From NCBI GenBank assembly GCA_965217865.1, contig CBDCJO010000001.1:192001-256000 (forward strand): a DNA stretch of 64,000 bases, in the 5' to 3' direction. Every line of letters starts with the position of its first letter. The first letter of the stretch is position 1. The position numbers were made by a program, and so were the translations under genes. The notes beneath the pieces are model-generated. The model was not told where the DNA came from and did not search any database. It worked only from the letters and a program-made list of their open reading frames with translations. This DNA comes from Candidatus Latescibacterota bacterium. GTDB taxonomy: Bacteria > Latescibacterota > UBA2968 > SICM01. Positions 3,602 to 25,804 of this stretch are shown here, piece by piece.

Positions 3602-5149
3602 TTACCCGACTTTCACGTACAGAAAGGGCGGAATGCTCAACCCGACGACGTCATCCCCGGAATTGATTTCCCTGGCAAGACCCAGCGCATGGTTTATGCT
3701 GGGTGCCCAATCAACTCCGAGTTTTTTGGCGGTCTTATCGTCCCTGGGACCGACGAGGATGACCTTTGAGAGATATTTCAGAGGATAGGTTGCCCAGTAC
3801 CAGACGGTAAACGGGTGGAAGCCGTGGTGTGCGTATTTGTTCCGGTAACAGTCTATGAGATAGGGGTCAAGTGCGAATTTCTCCTGGAACTTTTGCTGCA
3901 TTTCGAAAGGTTCCGTGGTCTCGGCTAAGACCTCTTCATAAAATTTCTTATACGCAACGTGATATTCTTCGTGAAAGATCTCAAAGGTGGGGTTGACGAT
4001 GATAATCACCCCCCCTTTTTTTACGATCGGTCTATTATAAAACCAGTTGAAAACATAACCCAGTACATCGCTGACCACCAGAACGGGGTTGATGCGCGCC
4101 CCCACCGAGTAAGGGCTCAGGTCCGGAAGCCCGAAAACAAGGGTGCCGAATTGTCTGGGCACGGGAACGGTCAACTGAGCGTTCACGGCGTTCAGGGTCT
4201 TTGCGTGGACATCATCGATGGCCCCGGCGTTGATCTCGATCGGATCGTAGGACGTGCGGATGCCTTTGAAAATTTGGAATCGGAGGGGTTCTGGAAGCAC
4301 CGCCATGCTCGCAGGGGTGAAGAACTTCAGAACGCGCTCAATGGGGTTACATCGGTCGTTCGGTTTGCTGATGTATCTCAGGTAGAACGGGTAAGTCGCG
4401 CTGTTCATCGGGGCTTCCAATACCATAATCCTACAATGTTTCTGAAGGAACCTGCTCATCCTTTCGATGGAAGCGTGCATGCACGAATTTTCCGGCTGCA
4501 TCACGTGAGGGTTCTCCGATGTCATCTGGGGAGAATGGTGAGGCGCAATCGAACGGTAGGTTCCCAAACCCACCGCGACCGATTTATGGCCCCCGTTCAG
4601 AGGTATCTGAACCGTATCGACATAGATGACCAGATCGCTTTCGACCACCGACCGGTCTACCTCCACGGCTTCCCCCGCTTCGGTCTCTCCGAGGAAAGTG
4701 ATATGATCGGGATCTTCCGCATCGAAATTTCGCAATTGTTCCGGATAAAACGCCTGCATGAGTCTTTTACCCAACATGGCGGCCAACTCGTGTCTTTTCA
4801 TTTTTCGGTGAAGCGCGACCGCACAGATCAGTCGGATATTTTCCTTCTGAACCCCGTAGGAGAACAATTTTGAGATCAGGGTTTCGATGACGATCTGCCG
4901 GATATCCGGTTTTTTTGTCGCGGGGAAGGGCTGGCAATTATCGTCGAAAGCGATGGTGATTCTGGATTGGCCGTTGACGATTTTACTTAAGGGGGGCATC
5001 CCGCAGGGATTTTCAATAGCCTCCTGGACCGACTTCGGAATATCCGGTCTTTTTATTCCAGGAACGTGTGGAGGGGAATAATAGATTTCAGAATTGTCAG
5101 GCAGGTTTGCATTAATCAGATTGTTGCCCGAGTATGTCAGATATTTCAT
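3602..5149 (-). CDS. LarA/DUF2088 (lactate racemase-like, nickel-pincer family) protein
   Basis: EAIENPCGMPPL, IAFDD, AVALHRKM, GGHKS...HH with LarA-like Lys-x15-His spacing. Confidence 0.8.
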   Translation of the reverse strand: MKYLTYSGNNLINANLPDNSEIYYSPPHVPGIKRPDIPKSVQEAIENPCGMPPLSKIVNGQSRITIAFDDNCQPFPATKKPDIRQIVIETLISKLFSYGVQKENIRLICAVALHRKMKRHELAAMLGKRLMQAFYPEQLRNFDAEDPDHITFLGETEAGEAVEVDRSVVESDLVIYVDTVQIPLNGGHKSVAVGLGTYRSIAPHHSPQMTSENPHVMQPENSCMHASIERMSRFLQKHCRIMVLEAPMNSATYPFYLRYISKPNDRCNPIERVLKFFTPASMAVLPEPLRFQIFKGIRTSYDPIEINAGAIDDVHAKTLNAVNAQLTVPVPRQFGTLVFGLPDLSPYSVGARINPVLVVSDVLGYVFNWFYNRPIVKKGGVIIIVNPTFEIFHEEYHVAYKKFYEEVLAETTEPFEMQQKFQEKFALDPYLIDCYRNKYAHHGFHPFTVWYWATYPLKYLSKVILVGPRDDKTAKKLGVDWAPSINHALGLAREINSGDDVVGLSIPPFLYVKVG

Positions 5150-5203
5150 AAGGCCCCGCCCCGGTTATGAACCCGGAAGATCCGTGTCAGACTCGTCCTC
5201 CCC

Positions 5204-6397
5204 CTACCCTTCGCGTAAATCAAAAGCCGTTTTTATCGAGCCGTTGCGTCCGGTATGCATGGCCACCTCTAAGGCCTCCCGGTAATCCCGAAGGGGAAAC
5301 TTGTGGGTCACGAGCGATGTAAGCCCGTCCTTGAGCCCCTCCATGAGTCGAAGCGCCAGCTGGAAGGTGCGAATCGTCTCGCCGTCCCAGCATTCTGTAC
5401 CGTACGTGTAAGATCCGACGACCTGCAGCTCCTTATACCAGATCGAGGTCCAATCCACACCGGAGGGAATCGCAGGCATGCCCACCAGTATGGTCTTCCC
5501 CCTTGCTCGCGTAAAGCGAAGGGCGTCATCGATCGTCCGGGCGTTCCCGACGCAGTCAAAAACGACATCCGCCCCTCCCACCAGGACCGACTTCCCGAGC
5601 TCCGGCCGAAGTTGTTCCGCCCCCGTAGCTTCACATACGGACTCGTAGAGGTTCCTCCCATCCTGGATGATTTCGTTCGCTCCCAGTCCGAGGGCGGATT
5701 CTTGCTGGTGGGAGTATCGGGCAACCGCGATGATCCTGCTTTCGCTCCCGAGCGCCCTCAGGGCTGCAACGGTCAACAACCCGATGCTTCCACACCCGAT
5801 AATCAGAACAGTGGCTCCTTTTTCAGTCATACCGCGAAGGGCCCCGTGGACTGCACACGCAAAGGGTTCGATCAACACGGCCTCTTCGTCGGTCATGTCA
5901 TCCGGTACAGGATGAACCTGAAAAGGATGTGCAACAAGTGACCGACTCCAGCCGCCTCCCGTATCTCTGCAGAATCCTGTCTGAATGCCGGATGAGATGA
6001 TGCCTTTCGTTGTCTTTTCACAGTTTCCATAATCCCCGGCGGTACACCGGCGGCAGTGGTCAACCCCCCTGACCACGCAGGGTAACGCGGGTTCGAGAAC
6101 CACACGCCGCCCTTCTTCCGTCTCTCCCACCATCTCGTGACCGAGTACGAACGGGGTGGAGACAAAAGGCGAAAAATAGGGACTGCCGTTCGCCGAGACC
6201 GTCGCAAGGTCCGATCCGCAGATCCCGCTCAGTCTCGGTTTGATCCGGATCCACTCAGGGGACGGAAGCTTCGGTTCCTCGATCTCGGATAGTCGGATGC
6301 AGGAATAAACTCCGGTGCTCAACCCGGTCCAATACCCCCCCAACAATCTTACCTTCAGATAGCGCGGGATGCTCTTGATGTACTGGATGGCCTCCAT
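5204..6397 (-). CDS. Zinc-binding (MDR) alcohol dehydrogenase
   Basis: GICGSD, GHE, structural-Zn Cys cluster, GCGSIG Rossmann motif. Confidence 0.92.
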   Translation of the reverse strand: MEAIQYIKSIPRYLKVRLLGGYWTGLSTGVYSCIRLSEIEEPKLPSPEWIRIKPRLSGICGSDLATVSANGSPYFSPFVSTPFVLGHEMVGETEEGRRVVLEPALPCVVRGVDHCRRCTAGDYGNCEKTTKGIISSGIQTGFCRDTGGGWSRSLVAHPFQVHPVPDDMTDEEAVLIEPFACAVHGALRGMTEKGATVLIIGCGSIGLLTVAALRALGSESRIIAVARYSHQQESALGLGANEIIQDGRNLYESVCEATGAEQLRPELGKSVLVGGADVVFDCVGNARTIDDALRFTRARGKTILVGMPAIPSGVDWTSIWYKELQVVGSYTYGTECWDGETIRTFQLALRLMEGLKDGLTSLVTHKFPLRDYREALEVAMHTGRNGSIKTAFDLREG

Positions 6398-6453
6398 CTC
6401 TCAAGATAGCCTCAATATATAACGGGACAGGGTATTCGATTTCGACCTTGAAT

Positions 6454-7161
6454 TTAAACCTTCCGGCTCACGCTCCATTCAGCCACCTCCCACCCGCCTT
6501 CTTCTGCTGCCCTCCGAAGCCTCCCTTTCGGATTTACCGCCACCGGATGTCCAACACAGCGGAGCATCGGCATGTCCGCGCCGCTGTCGCCGTATGCGAA
6601 GCTTTCCGCAAGGTCGATCTGTTGGGCTTCAGCGAACTCCCGCACAAGCCGGGCTTTTTCCTCGTCTCCGACCGGAGGACCGGTCAACCTTCCGGACAAA
6701 ATTCCGTTCTCCTCAGACATCCGTACGGAGATCACATCGCCCACATCGAGCAGCCGGGCAAGAGGGGCCACGATGAAGTCCAGGGAACCCGTGATGAGCA
6801 CCACCCGCTCCCCGTTATCCTGATGTCGCTTGACTCGTGCAACCGCTTCGGAGTACAATCTCGGCCTGATTTCACGCTCAAATAGCCCACCGGTCTGTTC
6901 GCGAAGTCGTGAGCCCGGCATCCCCCGATAGCTTCGATAAAAGACCCGGTTGAATGCGCTTCTGCTGATTTTGTCGATAAGGATGAAGGAGATGATTTGA
7001 GGAATGAACCCCGTCCAGAAGAAAATTTTTTGAAGTCTGGATCGGTCATGGGTCGCGAAATAGGCGTAGTAATGAACGATCGTAGCCCGGACAATGGTCC
7101 CGTCGACGTCGAAAAAAGCAGCCCTGGACCCGATCGAATCCATCTGTCCCGCAGACCCCAT
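6454..7161 (-). CDS. HAD-IB family (phosphoserine phosphatase-like) hydrolase
   Basis: FFDVDGT, ITGS, conserved Lys, AYGDSGADMPML, AVNP. Confidence 0.92.
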   Translation of the reverse strand: MGSAGQMDSIGSRAAFFDVDGTIVRATIVHYYAYFATHDRSRLQKIFFWTGFIPQIISFILIDKISRSAFNRVFYRSYRGMPGSRLREQTGGLFEREIRPRLYSEAVARVKRHQDNGERVVLITGSLDFIVAPLARLLDVGDVISVRMSEENGILSGRLTGPPVGDEEKARLVREFAEAQQIDLAESFAYGDSGADMPMLRCVGHPVAVNPKGRLRRAAEEGGWEVAEWSVSRKV

Positions 7162-7173
7162 AGGTGAAAATAC

Positions 7174-9168
7174 TCACGGCCCCGATGGTTCGGGGTTCAA
7201 AAGGCTTGTGATATGAACAGCCTGGAAAAGGGACGCTGACTCCACCTGAGTACGGAGCGATCTCCGCCGTGGCAGCAGGGTCGTCTCTCCGGGCATCGGA
7301 GGAGATATCACAACCTCGACCAATCCGGGATTGATGTGGAGGTTTCCCTTCGGGCACTTGGGCCAAAGGGAATGGATGCCACGGAAGGCGAGTGGAATGA
7401 TGACAACGTCATGGGGAAGCAGTGCGAACAGGGCGTGTTGGAGGGGGGGAGATTGGAGGCCAAAGGCAGCGATGGTCCCCGCAGGATAAGTCAGCCCGGG
7501 TCTTTCCCCCAGGGCCTGAACCAGGCGCTGAGTCGTAGGGATGGCATCCCGGGATCGCTCGAGCGTTACATATCCGTCCACATCTGCGAGCAATCCGTCG
7601 AATCTCTCCGCGGACATCCCGAACATGGTCATCGACCAGGAGCCGATCTTCACACCGGCATTGGCCAGCCCTGTGCGAGCCAGGATCACGAATGGAACCG
7701 GTCGTTTCCACCCCATCGCCCCCAAAAATTCTGGACTCCCCAGAACGTGGTACATAACGGGATGGTCCAGGTAACTCTGATGCGTGGGCAGCATGAGAAT
7801 CTTCTTCTTTCCGCTTCCAAGCTCAAGCCCTTGCGCGATCGGAAGGAACTTGGGATCGATCTGGATCTTTACCTGAATGCCGAAGGTGCGAAGCGTGGCT
7901 TCCGCCCAGTCCAGGCAATACTGCCAGGCGAGTTCACTCCTTTCGGCTGAATCCAGATCGGCCTTGGTTAAATTTATTTTTCGCCGCCCCAACCTGAAGG
8001 AGGCAATCACCCAGCGTCCCAATCTCAACCCTCGGGACCAATTGGACAATACGGAACTTCGGCCGACGTGAGGATACTCGAGGAAATGACCGCTGACTTG
8101 ATCCGAAAGCAGAGGGGGTACGGACACCGGATGAAGCCCTTCAACACCCGCGCGGACTGAATCTTTAACCCGAAGAATATCCCGATTGACACGTGCGACC
8201 AGGCGTATAGCTGTGTCGGTCATATCCCGTGTCAGATAACTGTAGTGATGCCCGTACCAGTATCCGGCCGGTTTCAATTGAGCTGGATTTTCCCGGTGCG
8301 CCCCCAAAAATTCGACCATCATGCTCTGGGCACGATTGATCTCCCCCTTGAGTGACTCGGCGGCCGACCGACCCAACCCCAGATCGCCGAATTCGTAAAG
8401 CTGGTAGCGAAGCAGATCCGCTTCTGTTATGACCTTCCACACGGAACTCCCGAACCAGGCGAAATTGGTATAGGCGTTGTAGCGTGTGGTCAGAAATTCA
8501 CCGGCGGCGATATAATCCAGGGTGCTCTTGACGACCTTTCGAAGCGAGTCCAGCAGAGGAGCCTCGGTCGTATGTCCCCCAAACGTGCATGCGTAGTTGC
8601 CCCCCCATCTCGGGTCGTCGCAGACCGCAACAGCGGGCAACGCCTCGGCGACGCCCTGAGCGTGGGACATCGGAACCCGCGAAATTTTTGCCCGCTCAAG
8701 CGCAGCCTCTCCCGCGTCGGGAACCAGGAGATCCTCCTTCGCCAACACATCCACGTAGAGGCTCTGGTAAAGTTGAAGCAAGTCCTCCTCGGTTCCGATC
8801 CCCCTATCGACGAATTGCTTCTGAACCTGAATATAGATAAGGTTTGCCTCGTGATAAGCCGGACAGGCGCTTTGGAACTGTGCGTGGGATTCGGACAGCC
8901 GTTTCTCCCTCAAGGCGGGTACACGATCGAAGATGGTCCGGATGAGCTTGGCCCTTTTCAAGAGACCCGGAAGGCCGATCGAACCCTGCTCATTCCGGCT
9001 CGGGGGCCAGATGAGTTCGTCGGGATCCCAACCTTCAAGGTGCCCGTCGGAACGCGCGATTTCGACCATCTCCTGCGCGGCCTGGTCGTAGATGTTCAAC
9101 ATTCCATCCGGGTCCTTCAGCAACTCTTCATAAAGAGGGTTGGGACCTATCTCAAACTTTTTCTCCAT
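7174..9168 (-). CDS. Large protein with C-terminal PlsC-type acyltransferase domain and unknown ~400-aa N-terminal domain
   Basis: PTHQSYLD (HX4D), YPAGT (block III), VIIPLAFRG in the C-terminal third. Confidence 0.75.
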   Translation of the reverse strand: MEKKFEIGPNPLYEELLKDPDGMLNIYDQAAQEMVEIARSDGHLEGWDPDELIWPPSRNEQGSIGLPGLLKRAKLIRTIFDRVPALREKRLSESHAQFQSACPAYHEANLIYIQVQKQFVDRGIGTEEDLLQLYQSLYVDVLAKEDLLVPDAGEAALERAKISRVPMSHAQGVAEALPAVAVCDDPRWGGNYACTFGGHTTEAPLLDSLRKVVKSTLDYIAAGEFLTTRYNAYTNFAWFGSSVWKVITEADLLRYQLYEFGDLGLGRSAAESLKGEINRAQSMMVEFLGAHRENPAQLKPAGYWYGHHYSYLTRDMTDTAIRLVARVNRDILRVKDSVRAGVEGLHPVSVPPLLSDQVSGHFLEYPHVGRSSVLSNWSRGLRLGRWVIASFRLGRRKINLTKADLDSAERSELAWQYCLDWAEATLRTFGIQVKIQIDPKFLPIAQGLELGSGKKKILMLPTHQSYLDHPVMYHVLGSPEFLGAMGWKRPVPFVILARTGLANAGVKIGSWSMTMFGMSAERFDGLLADVDGYVTLERSRDAIPTTQRLVQALGERPGLTYPAGTIAAFGLQSPPLQHALFALLPHDVVIIPLAFRGIHSLWPKCPKGNLHINPGLVEVVISPPMPGETTLLPRRRSLRTQVESASLFQAVHITSLLNPEPSGP

Positions 9169-9180
9169 ACATCCTTTTCC

Positions 9181-10821
9181 TTAAATCTTCTTCTTTTCGA
9201 TTTCTCCATCCGGATCCACCCCGTCCTCCGATTCTTTCAGGACGTGCCTTTTCAATCCGGGGATATGAATCTCCTGGATATACGCCTTCCAGTCGATACG
9301 TCCCACATCGAAGTTGAAGATCCTCTGCTCTTCTAAATTTAAATCCCGGTACAGGCGACGGGTGTTCTTCGTGGCAAACCGACAATCCAGATTGGTGTAG
9401 GGACTATAGATCTCGGCAAGGGACATCACTTTTTGAAGCGTGGCCTCCAGGGTGGTGACCCTTCGTCGCAGCGCCCGCGACCAGGGAATCGCCGAGACAT
9501 TATCGATCAACCATTGAAGTGTATTCAGCGGAATCTGGTATTTCAAACGACAGCGCCGCCGGAACTTCCTCGGTGAGGGAAAGGACCATCGATGTACCGG
9601 AATCGGGTCCCCTCCGCGGGTCCGCATAGGGTTCTTAAGGAAATATTCATGGACCAGTTTAAACATCTCTCCGAGTTTCAGCGGATTTTCAGTTCCCGTC
9701 GCAACTTGGTAAACCGCGACCTCTTTTCCGAAATTCGGTTTGGCCAGGGCAGCAAGCATCGCATTGACCACCATATCCACTGGCACGACATCGAGCACGA
9801 TATCGGGATTTGCAGGGAAGTCGGATATCCTCCCTTTGCTGTAATGAACGATCAACGTGTCTGCCACTTTTAATCCGTCAAGCCATCCGGGCTCAGGATC
9901 CACCAGGCTGCTCTCGATGATCGATGGACGAACGATGATGGTGGGCATATCCCCCCGTGTCTGGAGAATGGCCAGCTCCCCCATCGCCTTCGTGAGGGTA
10001 TAGCTGTCGTGCCACCCCATCCCCCTCGCCCTGCGCATCCCTTCATCGATCAACCTTCGGTTCAGCCACCGTTTTCGGGTGGCTTCGATAAGGGTCTGCA
10101 TCCGGTGCTCGGATATGGCGCGACCGTTCTGCTTTCGGATCGACCTTTGGAATTTCGCCCTCATCTCGGGAAGCCGCGATTCCTCCTGAACGCTTCGGCT
10201 GAATGTGATAATGTCCTCGATCTCCCGGTCCAGATCGAAGACATTTCCGTCTCTTCCCAGATGTGCGACGGTCTGCGAAGAAAGGATCGGTTCCTCGGGA
10301 ACCCGTCCGGTCTGCCTTCCGTTGACATATGCCGTGGAAACGTGCAGGAAAATCGGTTCGCGACACCCCGTTGCAAACTCGACCATTCGCATGGGTCCGA
10401 GGGTATTCAGCTCCAGCGCGAGATCGAGACGTTCATCAAAGACCACGGTGGCCGCGACATTAATCAGGACCTGCACCTCTTCAGCCAACCTGGCGCGCGT
10501 ATCCGGATCGAAACCCAGGCCGTCCTGGGACAGATCCCCTCCAACAGCCGACACCTTAGACCGTATAAAATCCCAGAACCCGTCGCCATACATCCTCCGC
10601 AACTTGGCGAAAGCCCTCGACTCGAACACCTCTCTCTCCAGACTTTCCTGGGCGGACAGAATCCCGCCATCCGGCCCGCGACGAGGTCTGATCATAAGAT
10701 ACAGCCGTCCCACATCCGGGATTTCCGACAGGATCTTCTCCACGAACCCCTTCCCCAGGAAACCCGTCGATCCGGTGACGAAGAGCTTTTTACCACTAAA
10801 AAAATCGGCGATAGTCGACAT
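9181..10821 (-). CDS. Fatty acyl-CoA reductase (NAD_binding_4 plus C-terminal Sterile domain)
   Basis: VTGSTGFLG, HVSTAYV, YTLTKAMGE (YxxxK), IVRPSII, DVVPVDMVVNA, FNFD...IDWKAY. Confidence 0.92.
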   Translation of the reverse strand: MSTIADFFSGKKLFVTGSTGFLGKGFVEKILSEIPDVGRLYLMIRPRRGPDGGILSAQESLEREVFESRAFAKLRRMYGDGFWDFIRSKVSAVGGDLSQDGLGFDPDTRARLAEEVQVLINVAATVVFDERLDLALELNTLGPMRMVEFATGCREPIFLHVSTAYVNGRQTGRVPEEPILSSQTVAHLGRDGNVFDLDREIEDIITFSRSVQEESRLPEMRAKFQRSIRKQNGRAISEHRMQTLIEATRKRWLNRRLIDEGMRRARGMGWHDSYTLTKAMGELAILQTRGDMPTIIVRPSIIESSLVDPEPGWLDGLKVADTLIVHYSKGRISDFPANPDIVLDVVPVDMVVNAMLAALAKPNFGKEVAVYQVATGTENPLKLGEMFKLVHEYFLKNPMRTRGGDPIPVHRWSFPSPRKFRRRCRLKYQIPLNTLQWLIDNVSAIPWSRALRRRVTTLEATLQKVMSLAEIYSPYTNLDCRFATKNTRRLYRDLNLEEQRIFNFDVGRIDWKAYIQEIHIPGLKRHVLKESEDGVDPDGEIEKKKI

Positions 10822-14455: not shown

Positions 14456-14614
14456 CCACTTCTCGTCGGCATCGGATTGAAAATAGTGCTTCTCGGTCAG
14501 GCAAAATCGCTCCCTCCCCAAATCCCCTCCCATCCTCCCTGGCCAAGGGCTCACCTTTTCTCTTTCTGATTCCTGACGTCATGTAATTCTGCTTTTCTCT
14601 TCTGCCCTTCTCCT

Positions 14615-17062
14615 ATGTCCATCCCCGCGCTTCTGAACGAATGGCGAAACGACCCCGAAGTCGCCCCCAACATCGCCGCCTGGCGAACCTTCCCCGAGCG
14701 TCAAAGAACGGCCGTGCCATTCCCGGCCGGGCTCCATCCCCTTCTGAAAGGGGCGTTGCTCCGGCGCGGGATCGACGTCCTCTACACACACCAGGGCCAG
14801 GCGTTGGAACACATACTTGCCGGCCGGCACACCGTCATCGCCACGGGCACGGCCAGTGGAAAAACCCTCTGTTATAACCTTCCTGTCTTGAATCGACTCC
14901 TCGTTGATCCGTCGGCACGCGCGCTCTACATCTTCCCCACGAAAGCCCTGGCCCAGGACCAGAAGGATGAATTGAGGGGGTTTATCGGTGGTTTTGAAGA
15001 AGGTTCCGAAGAGGGAAACCCGCAGCAGCGGATTCCTGTCTCGACATACGACGGAGATACGCCAAAAGGGGTCCGGTCCCGGCCGGGGGAACGCCCGGTT
15101 GGTCATCAGCAACCCGGATATGCTTCACTCCGGAATCCTGCCCCATCATACATTGTGGTCCGAATTTTTCCGCCACTTGCATTTCGTGGTGATCGACGAG
15201 ATACACGTCCATCGAGGCGTGTTCGGCTCGCACGTTGCGAATGTCCTTCGCCGCTTGAAGAGAATCGCGGATTTCTACGGATCAGCACCCCGGTTTATCC
15301 TAACTTCCGCGACGATCGCCAATCCCGAAGAGCACGCCGAACGGCTTGTCGAAGACCACGTCTCACTCGTGGAGGTGGACGGCGCGCCACGGGGGGAGAG
15401 GCATCTCCTGATCTACAACCCGCCGATCGTAAACCGCGAACTCGGCCTTCGCCGAAGCGCCCTGTTGGAGAGCGTTCGCATGGCACGGGACCTGTACAAG
15501 CACGATGTGCAGACCATCGTTTTTGGTCGAACCCGTCGGACCGTTGAATTGATCCTCGGATATCTGCGACGCACCTCGACTCCATCTGCCCACGGGGACG
15601 ACGAAGATGATCGAATACGGGGGTATCGCAGCGGTTACCTGGTGAAGCATCGGAACGAGATCGAGCGGGGACTCCGGGAAGGGCTTGTGCGTACGGTGGT
15701 CGCAACAAATGCCCTCGAACTTGGAATCGATATCGGAGGCATGGGGGCTTCGGTGATGACCGGCTATCCGGGTTCCGTTGCAGGGACCTGGCAACAGGCT
15801 GGCCGCGCAGGCCGCAAGCGCGAATCCTCTCTTGCCGCCTTGATCTCTTCGGCCAACCCACTCGATCAATTCCTGGCGCACCATCCTGACTATTTTTTCA
15901 AAAAATCTCCTGAACAAGCCCTGATCAATCCCGATAATCTCCTGATTCTCTTACAGCATCTGCGGTGTTCGGCGTTCGAGCTCGTTATCCTTCGGGGATG
16001 GTCACCCTGCGAAGCGCCTCTTCCAACCGTGTGGATCTGGAGGCGGCTGAGGAGAATTCCTGGAAAACAATCGGTCACGTGGACATCACCAGCGCTCCCT
16101 GGATGGTCCATCCCCAGGCCATATATCTCCACGAGGGCCAGGCCTACTCCGTTGAGGATCTGGACCTCACCCGAAATGTCGCGCGATTGCGTCCGTGCCA
16201 GGTGGATTATTACACTGAGCCGCGAACCGAATCCACGGTAAGCCTCTTGGAAAAATCCCGCGAGACCCCGGCCTTCGGTGCCACGAAGCTTCACGGTGAA
16301 ATCGCTGTCACGACCCGGGTGACGGGATTTCAAAAGATCAAATGGTTTACCCACGAAATCCTTGGCGGGGGAGAACTCTCGTTGCCTCCAACCCGTCTAC
16401 AGACAACCGGGTATTGGCTCTCCCTGACCGGCCAAACCGTCGAGGGGCTTCGTATGGAGGGGTTGTGGACCAACGACCCTAACGATTACGGGCCCAACTG
16501 GGCGTTGCAACGGGAAAAAGCGATGGAACGCGACCGATTTCTATGCCAAATCTGCGGCGGAACGGAGGTTGAGGTGTCTCATCACGTTCATCACAAGATT
16601 CCGTTTCGCACCTTCGGATCATACGAGCAGGCCAACCGGTTGACCAACCTGGTGACACTTTGCTCAGTCTGCCACCGTCGCGCGGAACAGGCCGTGAAAA
16701 TCCGAAGCGGCCTGGCCGGCCTGGCATACATCCTGGGCCATCTCGCGCCCCTGTTCCTGATGTGCGATGCAAGGGATATCGGCGTTCATTTCGACCCCCA
16801 ATCCCCGCTCTGGGAGGCCCGTCCCACCGTCGTAATCTATGACCTGGTACCGGCCGGGATCGGTTTTAGCGAGCGCCTTTTTGAAAGGCACCAGGAACTG
16901 ATCGCGCGGGCCCACGATCTTGTAGGTTCCTGCGAATGTGGAGAGGGTTGCCCTTCCTGCGTAGGGCCTGCGGGTGAAAACGGAGAGAACGGGAAGCGCG
17001 AGACCCAGGGAATTCTCTGGGCCATTCTACCGCCCAGAGACCACTCTTGTAATTTGCCATGA
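14615..17062 (+). pseudogene. mrfA: MrfA/Hrq1-type DEAD/DEAH helicase with DUF1998 and inserted HNH domain; split over three frames
   Basis: TASGKT and PTKALAQDQ (frame 1); DEIH, SAT, ALELGIDIG, QQAGRAGR (frame 2); C-terminal CECGEGCPSC (frame 3). Breaks near 15082 and 15984. May be sequence errors rather than true pseudogenisation. Confidence 0.8.
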
Positions 17063-21198: not shown

Positions 21199-21260
21199 GC
21201 ATTGATTTTTATGGGCTTTACGTTATTTTTTATGGGCTCTTGGGCACGATGAGAATCGTC

Positions 21261-21289
21261 TTGACTTGATTGGGGCTTATCTATATCTT
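21261..21289 (+). promoter_or_regulatory. Putative sigma70 promoter for the caspase fusion gene
   Basis: TTGACT-N17-TATCTT in an AT-rich intergenic region. Confidence 0.5.
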
Positions 21290-21407
21290 TTTCATATGCC
21301 GGGGGGTCCATTTCCCGGAATTTTCTTTTTTAACAATTGTCTTTATTCAATGTCCAGACGGTGGTCTTTGCCATCATCTGGCATAATAAGGGATCAAGGG
21401 GAAAGAT

Positions 21408-24400
21408 ATGGCCGGCACTGATGCGTGGTCCGATCTGAGAGAAGGGGCCATTCGGAAGTTCTGTTTCGTCGAGGTGGACCTGGCTGGACACTCGCTGATC
21501 GCCGCGAATAACTCCACGCGGGACGCCGAGGATACCTTCAGCAACTTCCTCGATTTCATCATAGAATGCGCCGAAAGCCATATGGGAAGGCCCTGGGGTA
21601 TCGCCGGGGACGGAGGGCTCTTTGCATTTTACGACGATGATGTAACGACGATGGCCGAGGAGGCGACAAAGAGCGCCCTTGAGATCATCGACAATCTGGA
21701 CGGATTCAACGAAACCAAGAGCAAGGTCAAAGAGGAGGTGCGGGCACGCATCGCGGTTCACCTTGGGGACGCCAAGTACCGCGAACAAACAGGCCGGATT
21801 CAGAGCGACGACATCAACTTCGTCGCCCATCTCGAAAAGGGTAAAACCAAACCCAATTCCGTTTCAATCTCCTCAGGCGTCTACAGGGAACTTGTACAAG
21901 ATGAACTTCGGACCCGGTTCCGCGACAATGGGATTTTCGAGGAGCGGTCCGTCTACACCTCCGCGCCCCCTTCTGAAGAGGATGAGGCCGAAGGCCCTGA
22001 ACCCGAATCCAAGCCGCCCGATGAACCCGGAGCCCCGCTCACGCTCGCAGAGATCAAAGACCGCTACGCCCTGGTCATCGGAATCAGCGATTACAGCGAC
22101 GAGTCCATCCCGAAACTGAAATACGCCGCCCAGGATGCCCAGGCTGTCCACGATACGCTGATTCAGTACAGCGACTTTAAAGAGGAGAATATCAAGCTTC
22201 TCTTGAACGAGCAGGCAACATACCGGGAGATCAAGTCCGCCCTCGGGACCTTCCTTCCGCGAAACGCGGAGGAAAACGATTCGGTTTTCATCTATTTTGC
22301 GGGGCACGGTTGCCCCGACGTGGACCATTCAGGGCACAACACAGAAGATAACATCGCAAAATATCTCGCCCCCTACGACGCGGTTCGGGATGATCTTTAC
22401 GCAACGGCCTTCCCCCTGGACGACATGAGCGCGATGCTTCAGCGAATCGCTTCCAAATATGTAGTCCTCGCCCTCGACACGTGTTATAGCGGTCAGGCCG
22501 GAAATGGACGGACCTTCGAGACCGTGAATACGCGTGCCGTCCTGAATAACGCCTTCCTGAACAGGATCTCCGGGGAGGGCCGTGTGATCCTCACAGCATC
22601 CGACGTGAATGAACTGTCGATGGAGCTCGACCAGTTCGGGCACGGCATCTTCACCCATCACCTCCTGGCCGGCCTTACGGGTGAGGCGGACACGGACAAC
22701 GATGGGGCCGTGAGTCTACAGGAGCTTTACGAATACATTTCCGAGAGGGTGACGAGAGACGCCATGTCGGCCGGAGGAAGGCAGCATCCCCTCCTGCGGG
22801 GTTCCATGCCGCTGAGGCTCCCGCTGACCATGGCGCAGTTCTCGAAGCCTGAAGCCAAAGTTATCGATCCTGTGAGCCGTGACCTTGAGGAAGCCATCCG
22901 TCTTCAGAGCGTCGGCCAGTTCGATGAAGCCGTGGAGCTCCTCTCCGGAGTCCTGCCAAACGCCGGCGATCGAGCGACCGAGGTCATGAGGGCCATTGCC
23001 AAGACCCGCCTCCTTAAAGGCGATGTGGAGGGTGCGCTCTCAGAATACCTGCGGGCAATTGAAGCCGACCCTTTATCTGCGGTCAGCCACGCGGATTATA
23101 GCGGGGCCCTGCTGAAAGCAGGGGATTACGTTGCCGCGATCGAAGCCCTTCGAAGGGCCGTTAAAATCGACCCGGAACTTCGGGACCAGGGCGTCCTGAT
23201 CGAGATGGATCTCGAGGCGAAAATTCGCGAAAATCCGTCCGATTGGAAATTGAGATTTGCCCTGGCCGGCACCCTGGTCCTGCAGGGAAATCTGGATGCC
23301 TCCGTCGAACAGATTCAACGCGCATCCGATGCCGTCACCGATGAGGACCTGGATACCCTGGCAAACGATTTTGCAGAAAATCCTGCCTTCGTTGATCTGC
23401 GTGCCACGGAGAAGGCATCGGAAGCTCTGACCCTGCTGAAATCCAGGCAGGAAGCGCTGGAGGGTTTCAGAGCCTGCCTGAAGGAGGGGGAGCAGCTTCG
23501 AAAAGACGGCAAAGTGGCCGCCGCCCGGAAGCGTTTTGCCGAAGGGGCGCAGAAATGGCCCCGGTATCAGGAGGTCCTGTCCAAGAAGGCCGCCGAAGTT
23601 GCTGCGGTGGAAGAAACCCTTAAGCAGTCCAACCTCGATCGGCTTACGAAGGAGCCATACCTGGACGATCTGGCCGAAAAGACCCTGGCTGCCAAGGATC
23701 GTTCGAAGGCAGGCGGGGGTGACCGCGAGGCCACGATGAACAAAGCCCGGTTAGAGGAGGCCCTTACATCCTCCGGCTACCTTCCCATCGACATGGATTC
23801 CGCCTTTAAGCTTTTTCTTAAGAAATACATTTCCCGTTCGGAGAAAGTGGTCGCGGAGAAGGCCGAGCACGCCAAGCGGCTGATCCAGGCTGATTTTCTG
23901 GACCGGGCGAAAGACGTGGTCGACACGATTCTGAGCATCAACCCTGCCCACCCGATGGGCAAAGCCCTTGCAAAGAGGCTTTCGAGCCTCAAACAGCAAC
24001 AGGCCGAGAGCACCAAGGCCATCACGATGGTTCAGAAACTGATCCGTGAACACGAATATGAGAAGGCCGTTTCTCTCCTCAAGGGCCAGGCAAAACTCCT
24101 CAGCAGTCGGAGGGAGTACGCTCAACTGCTGAAAATCGCCGAGGAGGGAAAGAGCCGGGAAGCCGCCGTGAAGTCCTTCTTCGCGGTGGCCGATCAGAAA
24201 GAGGCGCAAAAGAAGTGGATGGAGAGCTTTACCATCCTGACGCAGATCCGCCTGGCGCAACCGGATGACCCCAGGGTGGAGAAGCGTTACCAGCAGATCA
24301 AACGCAGGGTGCGGGAGTGGGAGAAGGGGAAGACGACGCAGGTCCCAGAGGGTATGCTCTTTGTACCCGCTGGGTATTTCGTCATGGGCGAGGCCGCAGA

Positions 24401-24644
24401 TGGAAAAAGGATTCGATCGCCTCGCCTGCCGGTGTTCGTGGACGGCTTCTACATCGATCGATGCCCGGTAACGATGGAACGCTATCGCGAATTTCTCGAT
24501 AAGATCGAGAAGTCAGATGACCACAGTCGGTGTCATCCCGACGAACCGAGGGGAAAGTCCCTCGCAGAGATAATCTTGGCGAATTTATGGATGCCATTCC
24601 CCTTTAGCCCCTGGGGGTATCCCGTACCGTCCAGCCGCTCGTGA
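21408..24644 (+). CDS. Class III nucleotide-cyclase-like + caspase (peptidase C14) + TPR/helical + truncated FGE-sulfatase fusion protein
   Basis: VDLAGHS and AGDG (cyclase); ALVIGISDY, FAGHG, LDTCYSG (caspase dyad); TPRs; MLFVPAGYFVMG...FYIDRCPVT (FGE start). The last ~30 aa are antisense HD-GYP sequence. Confidence 0.8.
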   Translation: MAGTDAWSDLREGAIRKFCFVEVDLAGHSLIAANNSTRDAEDTFSNFLDFIIECAESHMGRPWGIAGDGGLFAFYDDDVTTMAEEATKSALEIIDNLDGFNETKSKVKEEVRARIAVHLGDAKYREQTGRIQSDDINFVAHLEKGKTKPNSVSISSGVYRELVQDELRTRFRDNGIFEERSVYTSAPPSEEDEAEGPEPESKPPDEPGAPLTLAEIKDRYALVIGISDYSDESIPKLKYAAQDAQAVHDTLIQYSDFKEENIKLLLNEQATYREIKSALGTFLPRNAEENDSVFIYFAGHGCPDVDHSGHNTEDNIAKYLAPYDAVRDDLYATAFPLDDMSAMLQRIASKYVVLALDTCYSGQAGNGRTFETVNTRAVLNNAFLNRISGEGRVILTASDVNELSMELDQFGHGIFTHHLLAGLTGEADTDNDGAVSLQELYEYISERVTRDAMSAGGRQHPLLRGSMPLRLPLTMAQFSKPEAKVIDPVSRDLEEAIRLQSVGQFDEAVELLSGVLPNAGDRATEVMRAIAKTRLLKGDVEGALSEYLRAIEADPLSAVSHADYSGALLKAGDYVAAIEALRRAVKIDPELRDQGVLIEMDLEAKIRENPSDWKLRFALAGTLVLQGNLDASVEQIQRASDAVTDEDLDTLANDFAENPAFVDLRATEKASEALTLLKSRQEALEGFRACLKEGEQLRKDGKVAAARKRFAEGAQKWPRYQEVLSKKAAEVAAVEETLKQSNLDRLTKEPYLDDLAEKTLAAKDRSKAGGGDREATMNKARLEEALTSSGYLPIDMDSAFKLFLKKYISRSEKVVAEKAEHAKRLIQADFLDRAKDVVDTILSINPAHPMGKALAKRLSSLKQQQAESTKAITMVQKLIREHEYEKAVSLLKGQAKLLSSRREYAQLLKIAEEGKSREAAVKSFFAVADQKEAQKKWMESFTILTQIRLAQPDDPRVEKRYQQIKRRVREWEKGKTTQVPEGMLFVPAGYFVMGEAADGKRIRSPRLPVFVDGFYIDRCPVTMERYREFLDKIEKSDDHSRCHPDEPRGKSLAEIILANLWMPFPFSPWGYPVPSSRS

Positions 24645-25804
24645 ATCTGCCCGATGACCTCGGGGATAATCCGAGGCATGCTGCTTTGGGTGCTGACCAT
24701 CTCCGTACTATAAAGGGGGTGCTTTCGAATCTCTACAAACTCCTGAGGAGACAGTGGGGAGGTCTTGGTGACAATGGCCTCGGGAACCCGTACCATGCCC
24801 ACATCCTGGAGGAGGGCGATGACTCCCACGTCGAGCACATCCTGTTTGACCAGGTTCATCGCGACCGCCACTTCGGTGGCCAGGATAGAAACTTTGCACC
24901 CCTGGGCGAAAACGGGTGAGTTTTCATCATTCTTGTTCAGAACACCGAGCATGACATTTCCATCATTCATCAGGACGCTGAGGTTCTCGGCAACGATTTG
25001 GCGATGGTTTCGCAGCGCCCCGGTGCCCAGGCGAGGAGCCCCGGTCTGCTGATCCGAGGACAAGGTCTGCTCAAACTGATCCGCAGATTCGTCCATCACT
25101 TTCTTCACCTGCGAGACCCGCTGGGGCGTCCAGGGTGTCGGGGTCCTCTTGAAATGAACACCCAGCGCGGAATCCGCTGGGACTTTTTCGAGCTTCTGCC
25201 GGGTTTCGGTCCTTTCGGACTCAAACGTCTTCCGCACCACCCGGGGGGTCCTGGCCGGCCGCTGCCCCTTGACGCGGCCGATAAAGTTCCCCACGGCCAC
25301 AGTGACAAAGTCCCTGGGGTCCAGCAACTGATCCCCTTCCAACTGATATATCTTGTCGGGTTGCTCATTTGTGATCTTCTTCAACTCTCCGATATGATCG
25401 CCAGTCAGGGTTTTGTCCTCCTGCACCCAGAGGTAGGCATTCAACACTTTGTAGGTATCCGGCTCAATCCGATCCCCCTCTTGGAGCCCGTCCACTCTGA
25501 GGACCTTGTGATCCTTGGAAGGATCGTAGGATACCCCCTCCCGTCTGGCCAATAATACCGCTTTATGCTCCTCGGCTGTTAGGCTGTAGACGCCTGTTTT
25601 TGACCAGACCTTCAGGTTGGGGATATCCTCAGCCGATATCGGGACACCTGCGGTCAGCAGCAGCCTTCCGCTGCTGGCGTAGATAAAATGGCTGAGGGTC
25701 TGACCTGGCTTCACATTTTCGAAATTGAGGAAATCCATCAGGCTCCACCTGTTCGGGGGGACGAATGCTTGATTTCTTTCGAAAAATAGCGTGTTGTACG
25801 TCAT
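24533..25804 (-). CDS. HD-GYP domain protein, C-terminally truncated and degenerate
   Basis: ALLQDVG (HD replaced by QD), KHPLYS, IHERLDGTGYPQGL, FAKIIS; the ADxxDA...RPY tail is missing. Confidence 0.75.
   Translation of the reverse strand: MTYNTLFFERNQAFVPPNRWSLMDFLNFENVKPGQTLSHFIYASSGRLLLTAGVPISAEDIPNLKVWSKTGVYSLTAEEHKAVLLARREGVSYDPSKDHKVLRVDGLQEGDRIEPDTYKVLNAYLWVQEDKTLTGDHIGELKKITNEQPDKIYQLEGDQLLDPRDFVTVAVGNFIGRVKGQRPARTPRVVRKTFESERTETRQKLEKVPADSALGVHFKRTPTPWTPQRVSQVKKVMDESADQFEQTLSSDQQTGAPRLGTGALRNHRQIVAENLSVLMNDGNVMLGVLNKNDENSPVFAQGCKVSILATEVAVAMNLVKQDVLDVGVIALLQDVGMVRVPEAIVTKTSPLSPQEFVEIRKHPLYSTEMVSTQSSMPRIIPEVIGQIHERLDGTGYPQGLKGNGIHKFAKIISARDFPLGSSG

What the first reader, a model, noticed from the sequence alone, without database searches (positions are those of the whole stretch)
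21408..24556. Divergent nucleotide cyclase-caspase-TPR-FGE fusion: candidate conflict or signalling effector
Seen: the N-terminal class III cyclase fold keeps both metal Asp residues (VDLAGHS, AGDG), but has Gly at the usual substrate-specifying Lys and His at the N-x3-R arginine (INFVAH). It is followed by an acidic Pro linker, a caspase domain with intact His-Gly and Asp-x-Cys dyad, an EF-hand-like DTDNDGAVSLQE, TPR/helical repeats and the start of an FGE-sulfatase domain. No signal peptide. Known: caspase-like proteases, cyclases (e.g. Pycsar PycC), TPRs and FGE/C-lectin-fold domains each recur in bacterial immunity systems. Inference: a one-protein sensor-protease whose cyclase either makes a non-canonical nucleotide or acts as a dimerisation switch for the caspase.
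Basis: partly seen in the sequence, partly recalled or inferred. Interest (0 to 1): 0.72.

Follow-up and report, generated by a model that had tools for sequence, protein, structure and literature searches.

The report
Rewired cyclase fused to bacterial caspase
A real bacterial gene joins a cyclase-shaped domain with a rewired active site to a caspase-like protease and binding repeats, likely forming a one-protein sensor whose cyclase part is predicted to act as a nucleotide-binding dimer switch, although this genome's copy has lost its tail in a natural deletion.

Summary
ORF 21408-24644 encodes a class III cyclase fold (pLDDT 96.7, Z about 22 to adenylyl cyclases), a C14 caspase with an intact His300/Cys359 dyad, a TPR-like solenoid and the start of an FGE domain.

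The window copy is a natural deletion allele. About 1.46 kb is missing at 24561/24563, which by synteny removes the FGE tail, a response-regulator gene and an HD-GYP tail. Intact 1218-1222 aa orthologues exist at 68-99% identity.

The cyclase variant is not unique. It belongs to a family of 587 clusters that keeps both metal aspartates but mostly lacks the base Lys, the catalytic Arg (His instead) and the C-terminal Lys (Glu instead). Its closest copies are shuffled onto trypsin, TPR, PRTase and Shedu-nuclease proteins.

Best reading (0.45): a conflict-type sensor-protease with a nucleotide-binding dimer switch. Against defence: a syntenic core-chromosome location, slow evolution, and no effector partner or DGR. 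No dimer model or activity data exist. Cyclase, FGE and caspase in one chain is already published, in another order. The scan had no note on this sequence, only a different caspase-FGE fusion elsewhere. Verdict: a new variant of a known kind.

The parts
21408..24644 (+). ORF of 1078 aa: cyclase-fold module, caspase, TPR-like solenoid, truncated FGE domain and 27 residues of read-through; a deletion allele of a 1222-aa gene
   Evidence: 1038 of 1051 residues identical to intact P0312 and P0316
21420..21965 (+). Class III nucleotidyl-cyclase fold (aa 5-186): D24 and D68 kept; G64 at the base Lys; N137 kept; H141 at the transition-state Arg; E178 where adenylyl cyclases have the C-terminal Lys; short dimer arm
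21966..22055 (+). Acidic, Pro-rich linker (aa 187-216), the least conserved segment (52% identity to the G001 orthologue)
22056..22847 (+). Peptidase C14 caspase-like domain (aa 217-480): dyad H300 (22305-22307) and C359 (22482-22484); D243 and D357 align with the metacaspase aspartates; the only C14 domain found in this genome
22689..22724 (+). DxDxDG 'EF-hand-like' stretch (aa 428-439) inside the caspase domain; a family trait, not a separate domain
   Evidence: 80 of 116 caspase relatives; Pfam EF-hand below cut-off
22866..24332 (+). TPR and TPR-like all-helical solenoid (about aa 487-975)
   Evidence: Pfam TPR; all-helical model of the G001 orthologue matching TPR superhelices only
24339..24560 (+). 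N-terminal remnant of the FGE-sulfatase (C-type-lectin-like) domain; 171 residues of the intact allele are missing
24547..24564 (.). Deletion junction. The left parent ends at 24561, one base belongs to neither parent (24562), and the right parent starts at 24563. The join forms a perfect 6-bp hairpin with a 6-base loop. 1462 bases stand here in the long allele.
24533..25804 (-). Convergent HD-GYP gene truncated by the same deletion (HD_5 profile positions 9-131 of 170); its genuine part ends at 24563

Best explanation
The gene fuses a cyclase-fold module, a caspase-like protease with an intact catalytic dyad, a TPR-like solenoid and an FGE domain, and the intact protein likely works as a cytoplasmic sensor-protease of the conflict (anti-invader) type, in which the cyclase module is predicted to serve as a metal-nucleotide-binding dimerisation switch rather than an ordinary cAMP/cGMP synthase. 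Shown: the fold, the domain order, the dyad, the altered active-site residues and their conservation across a family, shuffling of the module onto unrelated C-terminal parts, and the deletion in this allele. Inferred, step by step: (1) the FGE and TPR parts bind a ligand or partner protein; (2) two cyclase modules pair head to tail, as class III cyclases do, with Mg-nucleotide held by D24/D68 at the interface; (3) pairing brings two caspase domains together across the flexible linker and activates them; (4) the protease cuts after Arg/Lys in itself or in an unlinked target. The window allele would keep steps 2-4 but has likely lost the FGE sensor.
For: Fold. Family signature in the 150 best representatives: D24 134 of 139, D68 143 of 148, N137 112 of 143; H141 86 of 143 with Arg in only 5; the base-Lys site is Lys in 8 of 149; E178 88 of 137. 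Of 126 rows with all sites, 122 keep both Asp, 4 have both Asp plus Arg141, and 63 read D-D-N-H-E. The metal site is therefore conserved while three basic residues of canonical cyclases are replaced. One orthologous module (P0048, L003) has lost D24, N137 and H141 yet sits on an intact FHA-trypsin protein, which fits a role that does not need catalysis. One 12-row clade (SH-aLRT 98, quick tree) carries five different C-terminal parts: caspase-TPR-FGE, FHA-FHA-TM-trypsin, TM-TPR, PRTase, and a helical region plus Shedu nuclease. The Shedu-fused copy is 87% identical in DNA to the G001 copy up to the domain end. Wider family fusions include EAD7, TCAD9, TIR, Mrr, FGE and calcineurin-like phosphoesterase, and 4 of 41 proteins hit PADLOC PDC-S60. 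The caspase dyad is conserved in 114 of 114 (His) and 114 of 115 (Cys) relatives. Literature passages: inactive cNMP cyclases, caspases and FGE domains recur in predicted conflict systems (PMC7159879); one Gemmata protein joins cyclase, FGE, TRADD-N and caspase (PMC8195603); a caspase without a linked effector protected E. coli from phages (PMC12642450); caspases and paracaspases are activated by dimerisation (PMC4357240).
Against: The gene sits in core chromosome. Six upstream genes and the downstream HD-GYP gene are syntenic in a second genus, and relA, lexA, dprA and the ribosomal-protein operon lie 2-40 kb away. It evolves no faster than its neighbours: 69% overall and 79% in the cyclase, against 56-72% for five neighbours. 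No cNMP-binding effector, EACC1, MoxR/vWA or DGR gene was found beside it. No relative was found in viral contigs (0 of 73 candidates). Only one copy of the module was found per genome, so it cannot bridge two different proteins as effector-associated domains do. Strict conservation of D, D, N and H fits an enzyme equally well. Of 83 family members scanned, 63 had no Pfam hit at 1e-4 and 4 had a response-regulator domain; a spirochaete branch lies among DNA-repair and metabolic genes. Metacaspases, the closest solved relatives of the caspase domain, are active as monomers (PMC4357240).
Confidence: 0.45

Rival explanations
1. The module is an active cyclase with non-canonical chemistry or specificity. 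His141 and Glu178 replace the usual basic residues, and the protein makes a cyclic or other modified nucleotide as a second output beside proteolysis.
For: Both metal Asp are kept in 122 of 126 rows, and N137 plus H141 in 72 of 126. The cyclase is the most conserved domain of the protein (dN 0.15). It has a weak match to PADLOC PycC models (E 9.4e-6) and Z 19.9 to the cUMP synthase 7r65. Pyrimidine and guanine cyclases of Pycsar and Pucsar use different base residues on the same two-Asp scaffold (PMC11224242; preprint 10.64898/2026.08.12.744502). The genome has 21 cNMP-binding domains.
Against: The non-canonical but active cyclases in the passages I read keep the Arg and vary the Asn (Ma1120, Rv1900c); this family does the reverse. 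The C-terminal Lys is also replaced: KG in 10 and EG in 41 of 126 rows. There is no receptor gene nearby. A close copy has lost D24, N137 and H141.
Confidence: 0.27
2. The protein is an ordinary signalling or regulatory protease of this lineage and not a defence factor. It may use the same switch, but in physiology, perhaps alongside the convergent response regulator and HD-GYP phosphodiesterase.
For: Synteny, slow evolution and the core-chromosome position. Response-regulator fusions occur in the family. Caspase-FGE and caspase-TPR fusions are common in bacteria, with varied neighbours (33 of 671 carry FGE; PMC3501461). The C-terminal FGE segment is nearly constant among orthologues, with no sign of hypervariation.
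Against: The distribution is very patchy: the module is in 4 of 168 genomes of the phylum and the full architecture in 2 of 41 relatives. The module was recently shuffled onto a Shedu nuclease. The neighbouring regulator genes face the other way, so they are not one operon with it.
Confidence: 0.25
3. For the window allele only: the deletion has made it a decaying remnant without its normal input, and the biology lies in the intact orthologues. This reading is compatible with the best explanation.
For: One event removes 171 FGE residues, the HD-GYP tail and, by synteny, a whole response-regulator gene. The missing parts are nowhere else in the genome (best identities 43% or less). A neighbouring helicase is split over three frames.
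Against: The first 1051 codons are intact and 98.8% identical to full alleles. The allele is seen in two studies and in a second assembly, so it is either young or tolerated.
Confidence: 0.55
4. The fusion or its truncated end is an assembly artefact.
For: Two convergent truncated genes meet at a hairpin, the genome's contamination estimate is 9.3%, and a nearby gene is frameshifted.
Against: The fusion is found whole in 4 clusters from several sources. The deleted junction is bridged by contigs in 3 of 7 runs laid, including X12 from a study other than the possible source, and the long form shows in 3 of 7. P0317, from another assembly, has the same read-through tail.
Confidence: 0.02

Closest known systems
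Conflict-system proteins combining cNMP cyclase, caspase and FGE (FGS) domains (Kaur et al. 2020 PMC7159879; Kaur et al. 2021 PMC8195603, the Gemmata massiliana cyclase-FGS-TRADD-N-caspase protein)
   Same: The same three domain types in one chain; FGE as the presumed ligand-binding part; inactive cyclases are described there as possible nucleotide binders or regulators (passages).
   Different: Different order, a TPR solenoid in place of TRADD-N, no MoxR, vWA, VMAP, EACC1 or EAD gene beside it, and a conserved D-D-N-H-E site that the passages read do not mention.
Class III adenylyl/guanylyl cyclases (CyaB 3r5g, CyaC 1wc1, Ma1120 4wp8, Rv1900c 1ybu)
   Same: Fold (Z 21.6-22.2, rmsd 1.6-2.1, 155-172 residues aligned), both metal Asp and the transition-state Asn.
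   Different: 16-21% identity; no base-specifying Lys/Asp or Glu/Cys pair; His for the Arg; Glu for the C-terminal Lys.
Pycsar PycC / Pucsar PucC and the 'immune clade' cNMP cyclases (PMC11224242; bioRxiv 10.64898/2026.08.12.744502)
   Same: Divergent class III cyclases with altered base residues; weak PADLOC PycC match. The preprint's immune clade 1 has fusions of the kind seen in this family (section 5).
   Different: No CNBD-TIR or membrane effector gene is next to it; it is structurally no closer to PycC (Z 19.9) than to adenylyl cyclases (Z 22). Whether this family lies inside their clade 1 could not be checked, because the figure and Table S1 were not visible.
Bacterial caspase-like proteases (C14) fused to TPR or FGE-sulfatase (PMC3501461; NCBIfam NF047832 EACC1-associated caspase)
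   Same: C14 domain with dyad, DxDxDG motif, TPR and FGE partners; 438 relatives at E 1e-20 or better.
   Different: None of 156 other caspase/TPR relatives carries this cyclase module; the score is below the NF047832 cut-off (108 against 140).

Membership tests
Class III nucleotidyl cyclase (active AC/GC) | Class III catalytic-domain fold | tested here: met
Class III nucleotidyl cyclase (active AC/GC) | Two metal-binding Asp | tested here: met
   D24 and D68
Class III nucleotidyl cyclase (active AC/GC) | Base-specifying Lys+Asp (AC) or Glu+Cys/Gly (GC) | tested here: not met
   G64 and R130 at these sites; both are variable in the family; definition from PMC4215837 passages
Class III nucleotidyl cyclase (active AC/GC) | Transition-state Asn-x3-Arg | tested here: not met
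   N137 kept, His141 for Arg; Arg in 5 of 143
Class III nucleotidyl cyclase (active AC/GC) | C-terminal hairpin Lys that binds the triphosphate (its role is recalled, not from a call) | tested here: not met
   F-E-E here against V-K-G in the genome's own canonical cyclase; KG in 10 of 126 rows
Class III nucleotidyl cyclase (active AC/GC) | Head-to-tail dimer with active sites at the interface | not tested
Class III nucleotidyl cyclase (active AC/GC) | Converts NTP to 3',5'-cNMP | not testable with these tools
   needs an assay
Pycsar / Pucsar | Cyclase gene next to a CNBD-TIR or membrane effector gene | tested here: not met
   neighbours are a His phosphatase, a response regulator and HD-GYP in the window and in G001
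Pycsar / Pucsar | Cyclase belongs to the PycC clade | tested here: inconclusive
   PADLOC PycC E 9.4e-6 only; Z 19.9 to 7r65 against 22 to adenylyl cyclases; no PycC sequences were in my tree
Peptidase C14 (caspase-like) | Caspase fold with His-Cys dyad | tested here: met
   Pfam PF00656 above cut-off; H300/C359 align with yeast metacaspase and are conserved
Peptidase C14 (caspase-like) | Proteolytic activity and P1 preference | not testable with these tools
   D243 (115 of 115) and D357 (114 of 115) suggest Arg/Lys; that these two form the S1 pocket is recalled
EACC1-caspase and MoxR-vWA ternary conflict systems | EACC1, or MoxR plus vWA, encoded beside the caspase/cyclase gene | tested here: not met
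   none among the neighbours scanned
EACC1-caspase and MoxR-vWA ternary conflict systems | EACC1 elsewhere in the genome | tested here: inconclusive
   PF19953 found in 0 of 4 genomes, but no control genome rang
DGR target protein | Template repeat and DGR reverse transcriptase; hypervariable FGE C-terminus | tested here: not met
   0 RVT_1 in G001, G002 and G033; 3 in G000, far away and without a template match; C-terminus nearly constant in 10 sequences
Catalytic formylglycine-generating enzyme | Pair of catalytic Cys after the RGG motif (motif recalled, not from a call) | tested here: not met
   no Cys between RGG and the terminal GFRC in 9 of 10 intact C-termini; the tenth ends aberrantly

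The most novel reading that the evidence does not exclude
A large, little-annotated branch of class III cyclase-fold domains with a conserved D-D-N-H-E site is a mobile signalling head. It makes or senses a nucleotide other than cAMP/cGMP and switches on whatever is fused behind it (caspase, trypsin, Shedu nuclease, TIR, PRTase). Here it would make a single-chain, nucleotide-gated bacterial caspase.
Probability: 0.22. Interest if true: 0.8.

Novelty: new variant of a known kind. Interest (0 to 1): 0.5.

Why it matters
The parts and their co-occurrence are known, and caspase-FGE and caspase-TPR fusions are common. What a specialist could use is the cyclase family. It has 587 clusters that Pfam mostly misses, a conserved but non-canonical active site, and very recent shuffling onto proteases and a defence nuclease. 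A single 186-residue domain assay would decide whether it is a new second-messenger enzyme or a nucleotide-gated dimer switch. That bears on the open question of what the many uncharacterised cyclases in predicted immune systems do. The natural pair of intact and sensor-less alleles is a ready control for the role of the FGE domain.

Tried and rejected
Missing halves elsewhere in the genome (inversion or translocation): not found; best matches were 43% identity or less, so this was rejected in favour of deletion.

Assembly artefact: rejected. Run X5 has no cover at the junction and tells nothing.

Arg130 as a pyrimidine-cyclase signature: dropped, since it is Arg in only 35 of 145 family rows. 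EF-hand as a special calcium sensor: rejected. DGR target: rejected.

Viral copies: none with alignment A3. G002 lacks the gene, but also the His phosphatase and HD-GYP orthologues, so it says nothing about presence or absence at the locus. The EACC1 search had no working control. The promoter-like site at 21261-21289 is at chance level (1 found, 0.4 +/- 0.6 expected).

A mixed cyclase-plus-caspase alignment (A5) misaligned the caspase rows and was not used. The FGE part of the second model was low confidence (pLDDT under 50), and its Foldseek hits show only TPR likeness. The careful tree did not finish; the quick tree is quoted, with 13 rows dropped for domains under 150 aa. dS is near saturation (1.0 or more), so only dN and identity are used.

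Papers: PMC549627 was not held, and PMC2447327 returned no passages. Eight literature searches returned no paper on this domain order or on the D-D-N-H-E signature; the library lacks most subscription journals.
Full report
Observation. The ORF runs 21408-24644 on the + strand, 1078 aa. Pfam finds a C14 caspase domain (aa 219-467), TPRs (531-590) and the first 60 of 255 positions of FGE-sulfatase. It finds nothing in the first 186 residues. That segment matches the cyclase 3mr7 by sequence (E 1.8e-6) and folds with pLDDT 96.7 on an 84-row alignment. It superposes on class III cyclases: Foldseek TM 0.78 to CyaC; Z 22.2, rmsd 2.0, 172 residues to CyaB; Z 19.9 to the cUMP synthase 7r65. The region between TPR and FGE is an all-helical solenoid in a model of the G001 orthologue, with only TPR-like matches. 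The 'EF-hand' motif occurs in 80 of 116 caspase relatives and is a family trait.

The window copy is a deletion allele. The convergent HD-GYP ORF (24533-25804, -) is cut at the same point. Seven runs were laid as contigs. The short form is bridged in X1 and X4 (study P1; X1 may be the source) and in X12 (study P2). The long form shows as a joint with 1462 extra bases in X6 (P3) and as loose ends in X2 (P2) and X11 (P4). X2 also holds a 61-base junction piece (depth 16.7, beside long-form pieces at 13 to 13.6) that is one letter short of the bridging rule. X5 has no cover there. The 90% cluster of seven sequences holds three intact proteins (1221-1222 aa), the window's protein, a second sequence with the same read-through tail, and two fragments. 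In G001, a different genus of the same family, the order is WG-repeat, helicase, RNase H-like, MFS, FecR, His phosphatase, the 1218-aa fusion, then on the other strand a response regulator and a 531-aa HD-GYP. The missing FGE tail, regulator gene and HD-GYP tail add up to 1408 bases by that yardstick, against 1462 observed. They are not elsewhere in the genome. That the regulator gene lay in the deleted stretch is inferred from synteny. The junction has one base from neither parent and forms a 6-bp hairpin, seen at 193 of 20000 random positions. This suggests fold-back synthesis during repair, which is inference.

Distribution. The full architecture is rare: 4 clusters at 90% identity (96, 69, 68, 68% to the window) among 44 hits from 7993 scored candidates, and 2 of 41 related genomes. 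The cyclase module is in 4 of 168 genomes of the phylum, one copy each. None of 156 other caspase/TPR relatives carries it. Named records with the closest copies are titled 'uncultured Gemmatimonas sp.' and Candidatus Handelsmanbacteria, which only hints at the host's wider group. Against G001, identity is 79% in the cyclase, 75% in the caspase, 61-74% further on and 69% overall; five neighbouring genes give 56-72%. The wider window is core chromosome. These points count against a typical defence island.

The cyclase family. A profile search found 587 clusters at E 0.001 or better, and the best 150 were examined. Both metal Asp are nearly invariant (134 of 139; 143 of 148) and Asn137 is mostly kept (112 of 143). 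The transition-state Arg is His in 86 of 143 and Arg in 5, and the base-Lys site is Lys in 8 of 149. The C-terminal hairpin has Glu where the genome's own canonical cyclase has Lys; D-D-N-H-E is the pattern in 63 of 126 complete rows. That this Lys binds the triphosphate is recalled. In the passages read, unusual but active cyclases keep the Arg and vary the Asn (PMC4215837; PMC4886424), the reverse of this family. One close copy has lost D24, N137 and H141.

Shuffling. In a quick tree (146 rows; 13 dropped as short) the window's module falls in a 12-row clade (SH-aLRT 98). Its members carry caspase-TPR-FGE, FHA-FHA-TM-trypsin (next to a PP2C phosphatase, a lipoprotein and a PEGA-FGE gene), TM-TPR, PRTase, or a helical region plus a Shedu nuclease. 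The Shedu-fused copy is 87% identical in DNA to the G001 copy over 269 bases and diverges at the domain end. Its contig starts inside the cyclase, so only half the module is seen and a mis-join cannot be excluded. Of 83 family members scanned with Pfam at 1e-4, 63 had no hit. The rest included response regulator (4), FHA plus TCAD9 (2), TIR (2), PRTase (2), and one each of EAD7, Mrr, FGE, phosphoesterase, HAD, AsnC and DUF5919. Four of 41 hit PADLOC PDC-S60 and one hit mad2. A spirochaete branch of about 305 aa sits among DNA-repair and metabolic genes. The family is therefore used in both conflict-like and signalling-like settings.

The caspase. It is the only C14 domain found in G000 and in G001. 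It is closest to yeast and plant metacaspases among solved structures and scores below cut-off for NCBIfam's EACC1-type caspase. The dyad and two Asp (D243, D357) are near invariant. A preference for Arg/Lys is inferred from metacaspases (PMC4357240 passages; the S1 assignment is recalled). A caution: one bacterial defence caspase was modelled on an Asp site (PMC12642450). No substrate gene lies beside it. The FGE domain of intact alleles lacks the catalytic Cys pair (motif recalled) and shows no hypervariation, and there is no DGR. It is best read as a fixed binding module.

Mechanism. I put 0.45 on a conflict-type sensor-protease in which FGE/TPR bind a ligand, the cyclase module pairs around metal-nucleotide without normal turnover, and pairing activates the caspase. 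Only the anatomy, conservation and shuffling are shown. Binding, dimerisation, activation and role are inferred, and no dimer model could be run. An active cyclase with new chemistry gets 0.27 and a purely physiological protease 0.25. Separately, the window allele is probably functionally crippled (0.55).

Comparison with what is known. Passages of PMC7159879 describe cNMP cyclases (some inactive), caspases and FGE domains in predicted conflict systems, and a cyclase replacing a caspase in EACC1 systems. PMC8195603 reports a Gemmata protein with cyclase, FGE, TRADD-N and caspase in one chain (passage). PMC3501461 counts FGE in 33 of 671 bacterial metacaspases (passages). FGE serves as a presumed sensor in DGR targets and STAND proteins (passages of PMC10907252 and PMC13581612). 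The Pucsar preprint (abstract and sections 5 and 7) defines two immune clades of cyclases. This family may lie in its clade 1, but the figure and supplement could not be seen. PMC11224242 was read as passages. The protein works like these systems by architecture. It fails membership of Pycsar, EACC1/ternary systems and DGR targets on gene context, and of canonical AC/GC on three active-site features. Eight searches found no description of this order or signature. The scan's own index had nothing by sequence or place and one different caspase-FGE fusion by words.

Verdict. This is a real, conserved but rare fusion, seen here as a natural truncation allele: a new variant of a known kind, interest 0.5. 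The most valuable lead is the D-D-N-H-E cyclase-fold family, which one biochemical assay could resolve.

Noticed in passing
window 14585-17062 (+): An MrfA-like helicase (DEAD, Helicase_C, HNH, MZB) is split over three reading frames, while G001 has one 911-aa ORF. It could be a pseudogene or sequence error; not checked against reads.
   Followed up: partly
L052:3-2849 (+): The cyclase module, 87% identical in DNA to the G001 copy, is fused to a long helical region and a Shedu SduA nuclease domain, upstream of a Ppx/GppA phosphatase.
   Followed up: partly
L017:744-6903 and L050:7075-13231 (+): Apparent operon of PP2C phosphatase, cyclase-FHA-FHA-TM-trypsin, LPP20 lipoprotein and PEGA-FGE protein; this cyclase copy has lost D24, N137 and H141.
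   Followed up: partly
L058, L029 and other spirochaete loci: A branch of about 305-aa family members with an unannotated N-terminal part of about 120 aa; in L058 and L029 they lie downstream of family B and family X DNA polymerase genes.
   Followed up: no
proteins P0126, P0129, P0151, P0172: Proteins of 909-968 aa whose N-terminus matches the PADLOC candidate system PDC-S60, followed by this cyclase module.
   Followed up: no
proteins P0314, P0315, P0317: A deleted-tail sequence and a split long-tail pair are all listed with the same longest contig length (5,782,071); possibly two alleles in one assembly. Unexplained.
   Followed up: no
G000:C2 about 451000, 487600 and 815000 (L042-L044): Three reverse-transcriptase genes, two of them near-identical, beside transposase and Fic-like frames; by my reading not DGR-type.
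   Followed up: partly
window 21200-21400: An AT-rich spacer before the gene, with a chance-level promoter-like site and a hairpin followed by a T-run at 21299-21328.
   Followed up: partly
window 3602-10821 (-): Lipid and acid metabolism cluster with a nickel-pincer (LarA-like) isomerase, a HAD hydrolase and a fatty acyl-CoA reductase-like gene.
   Followed up: no
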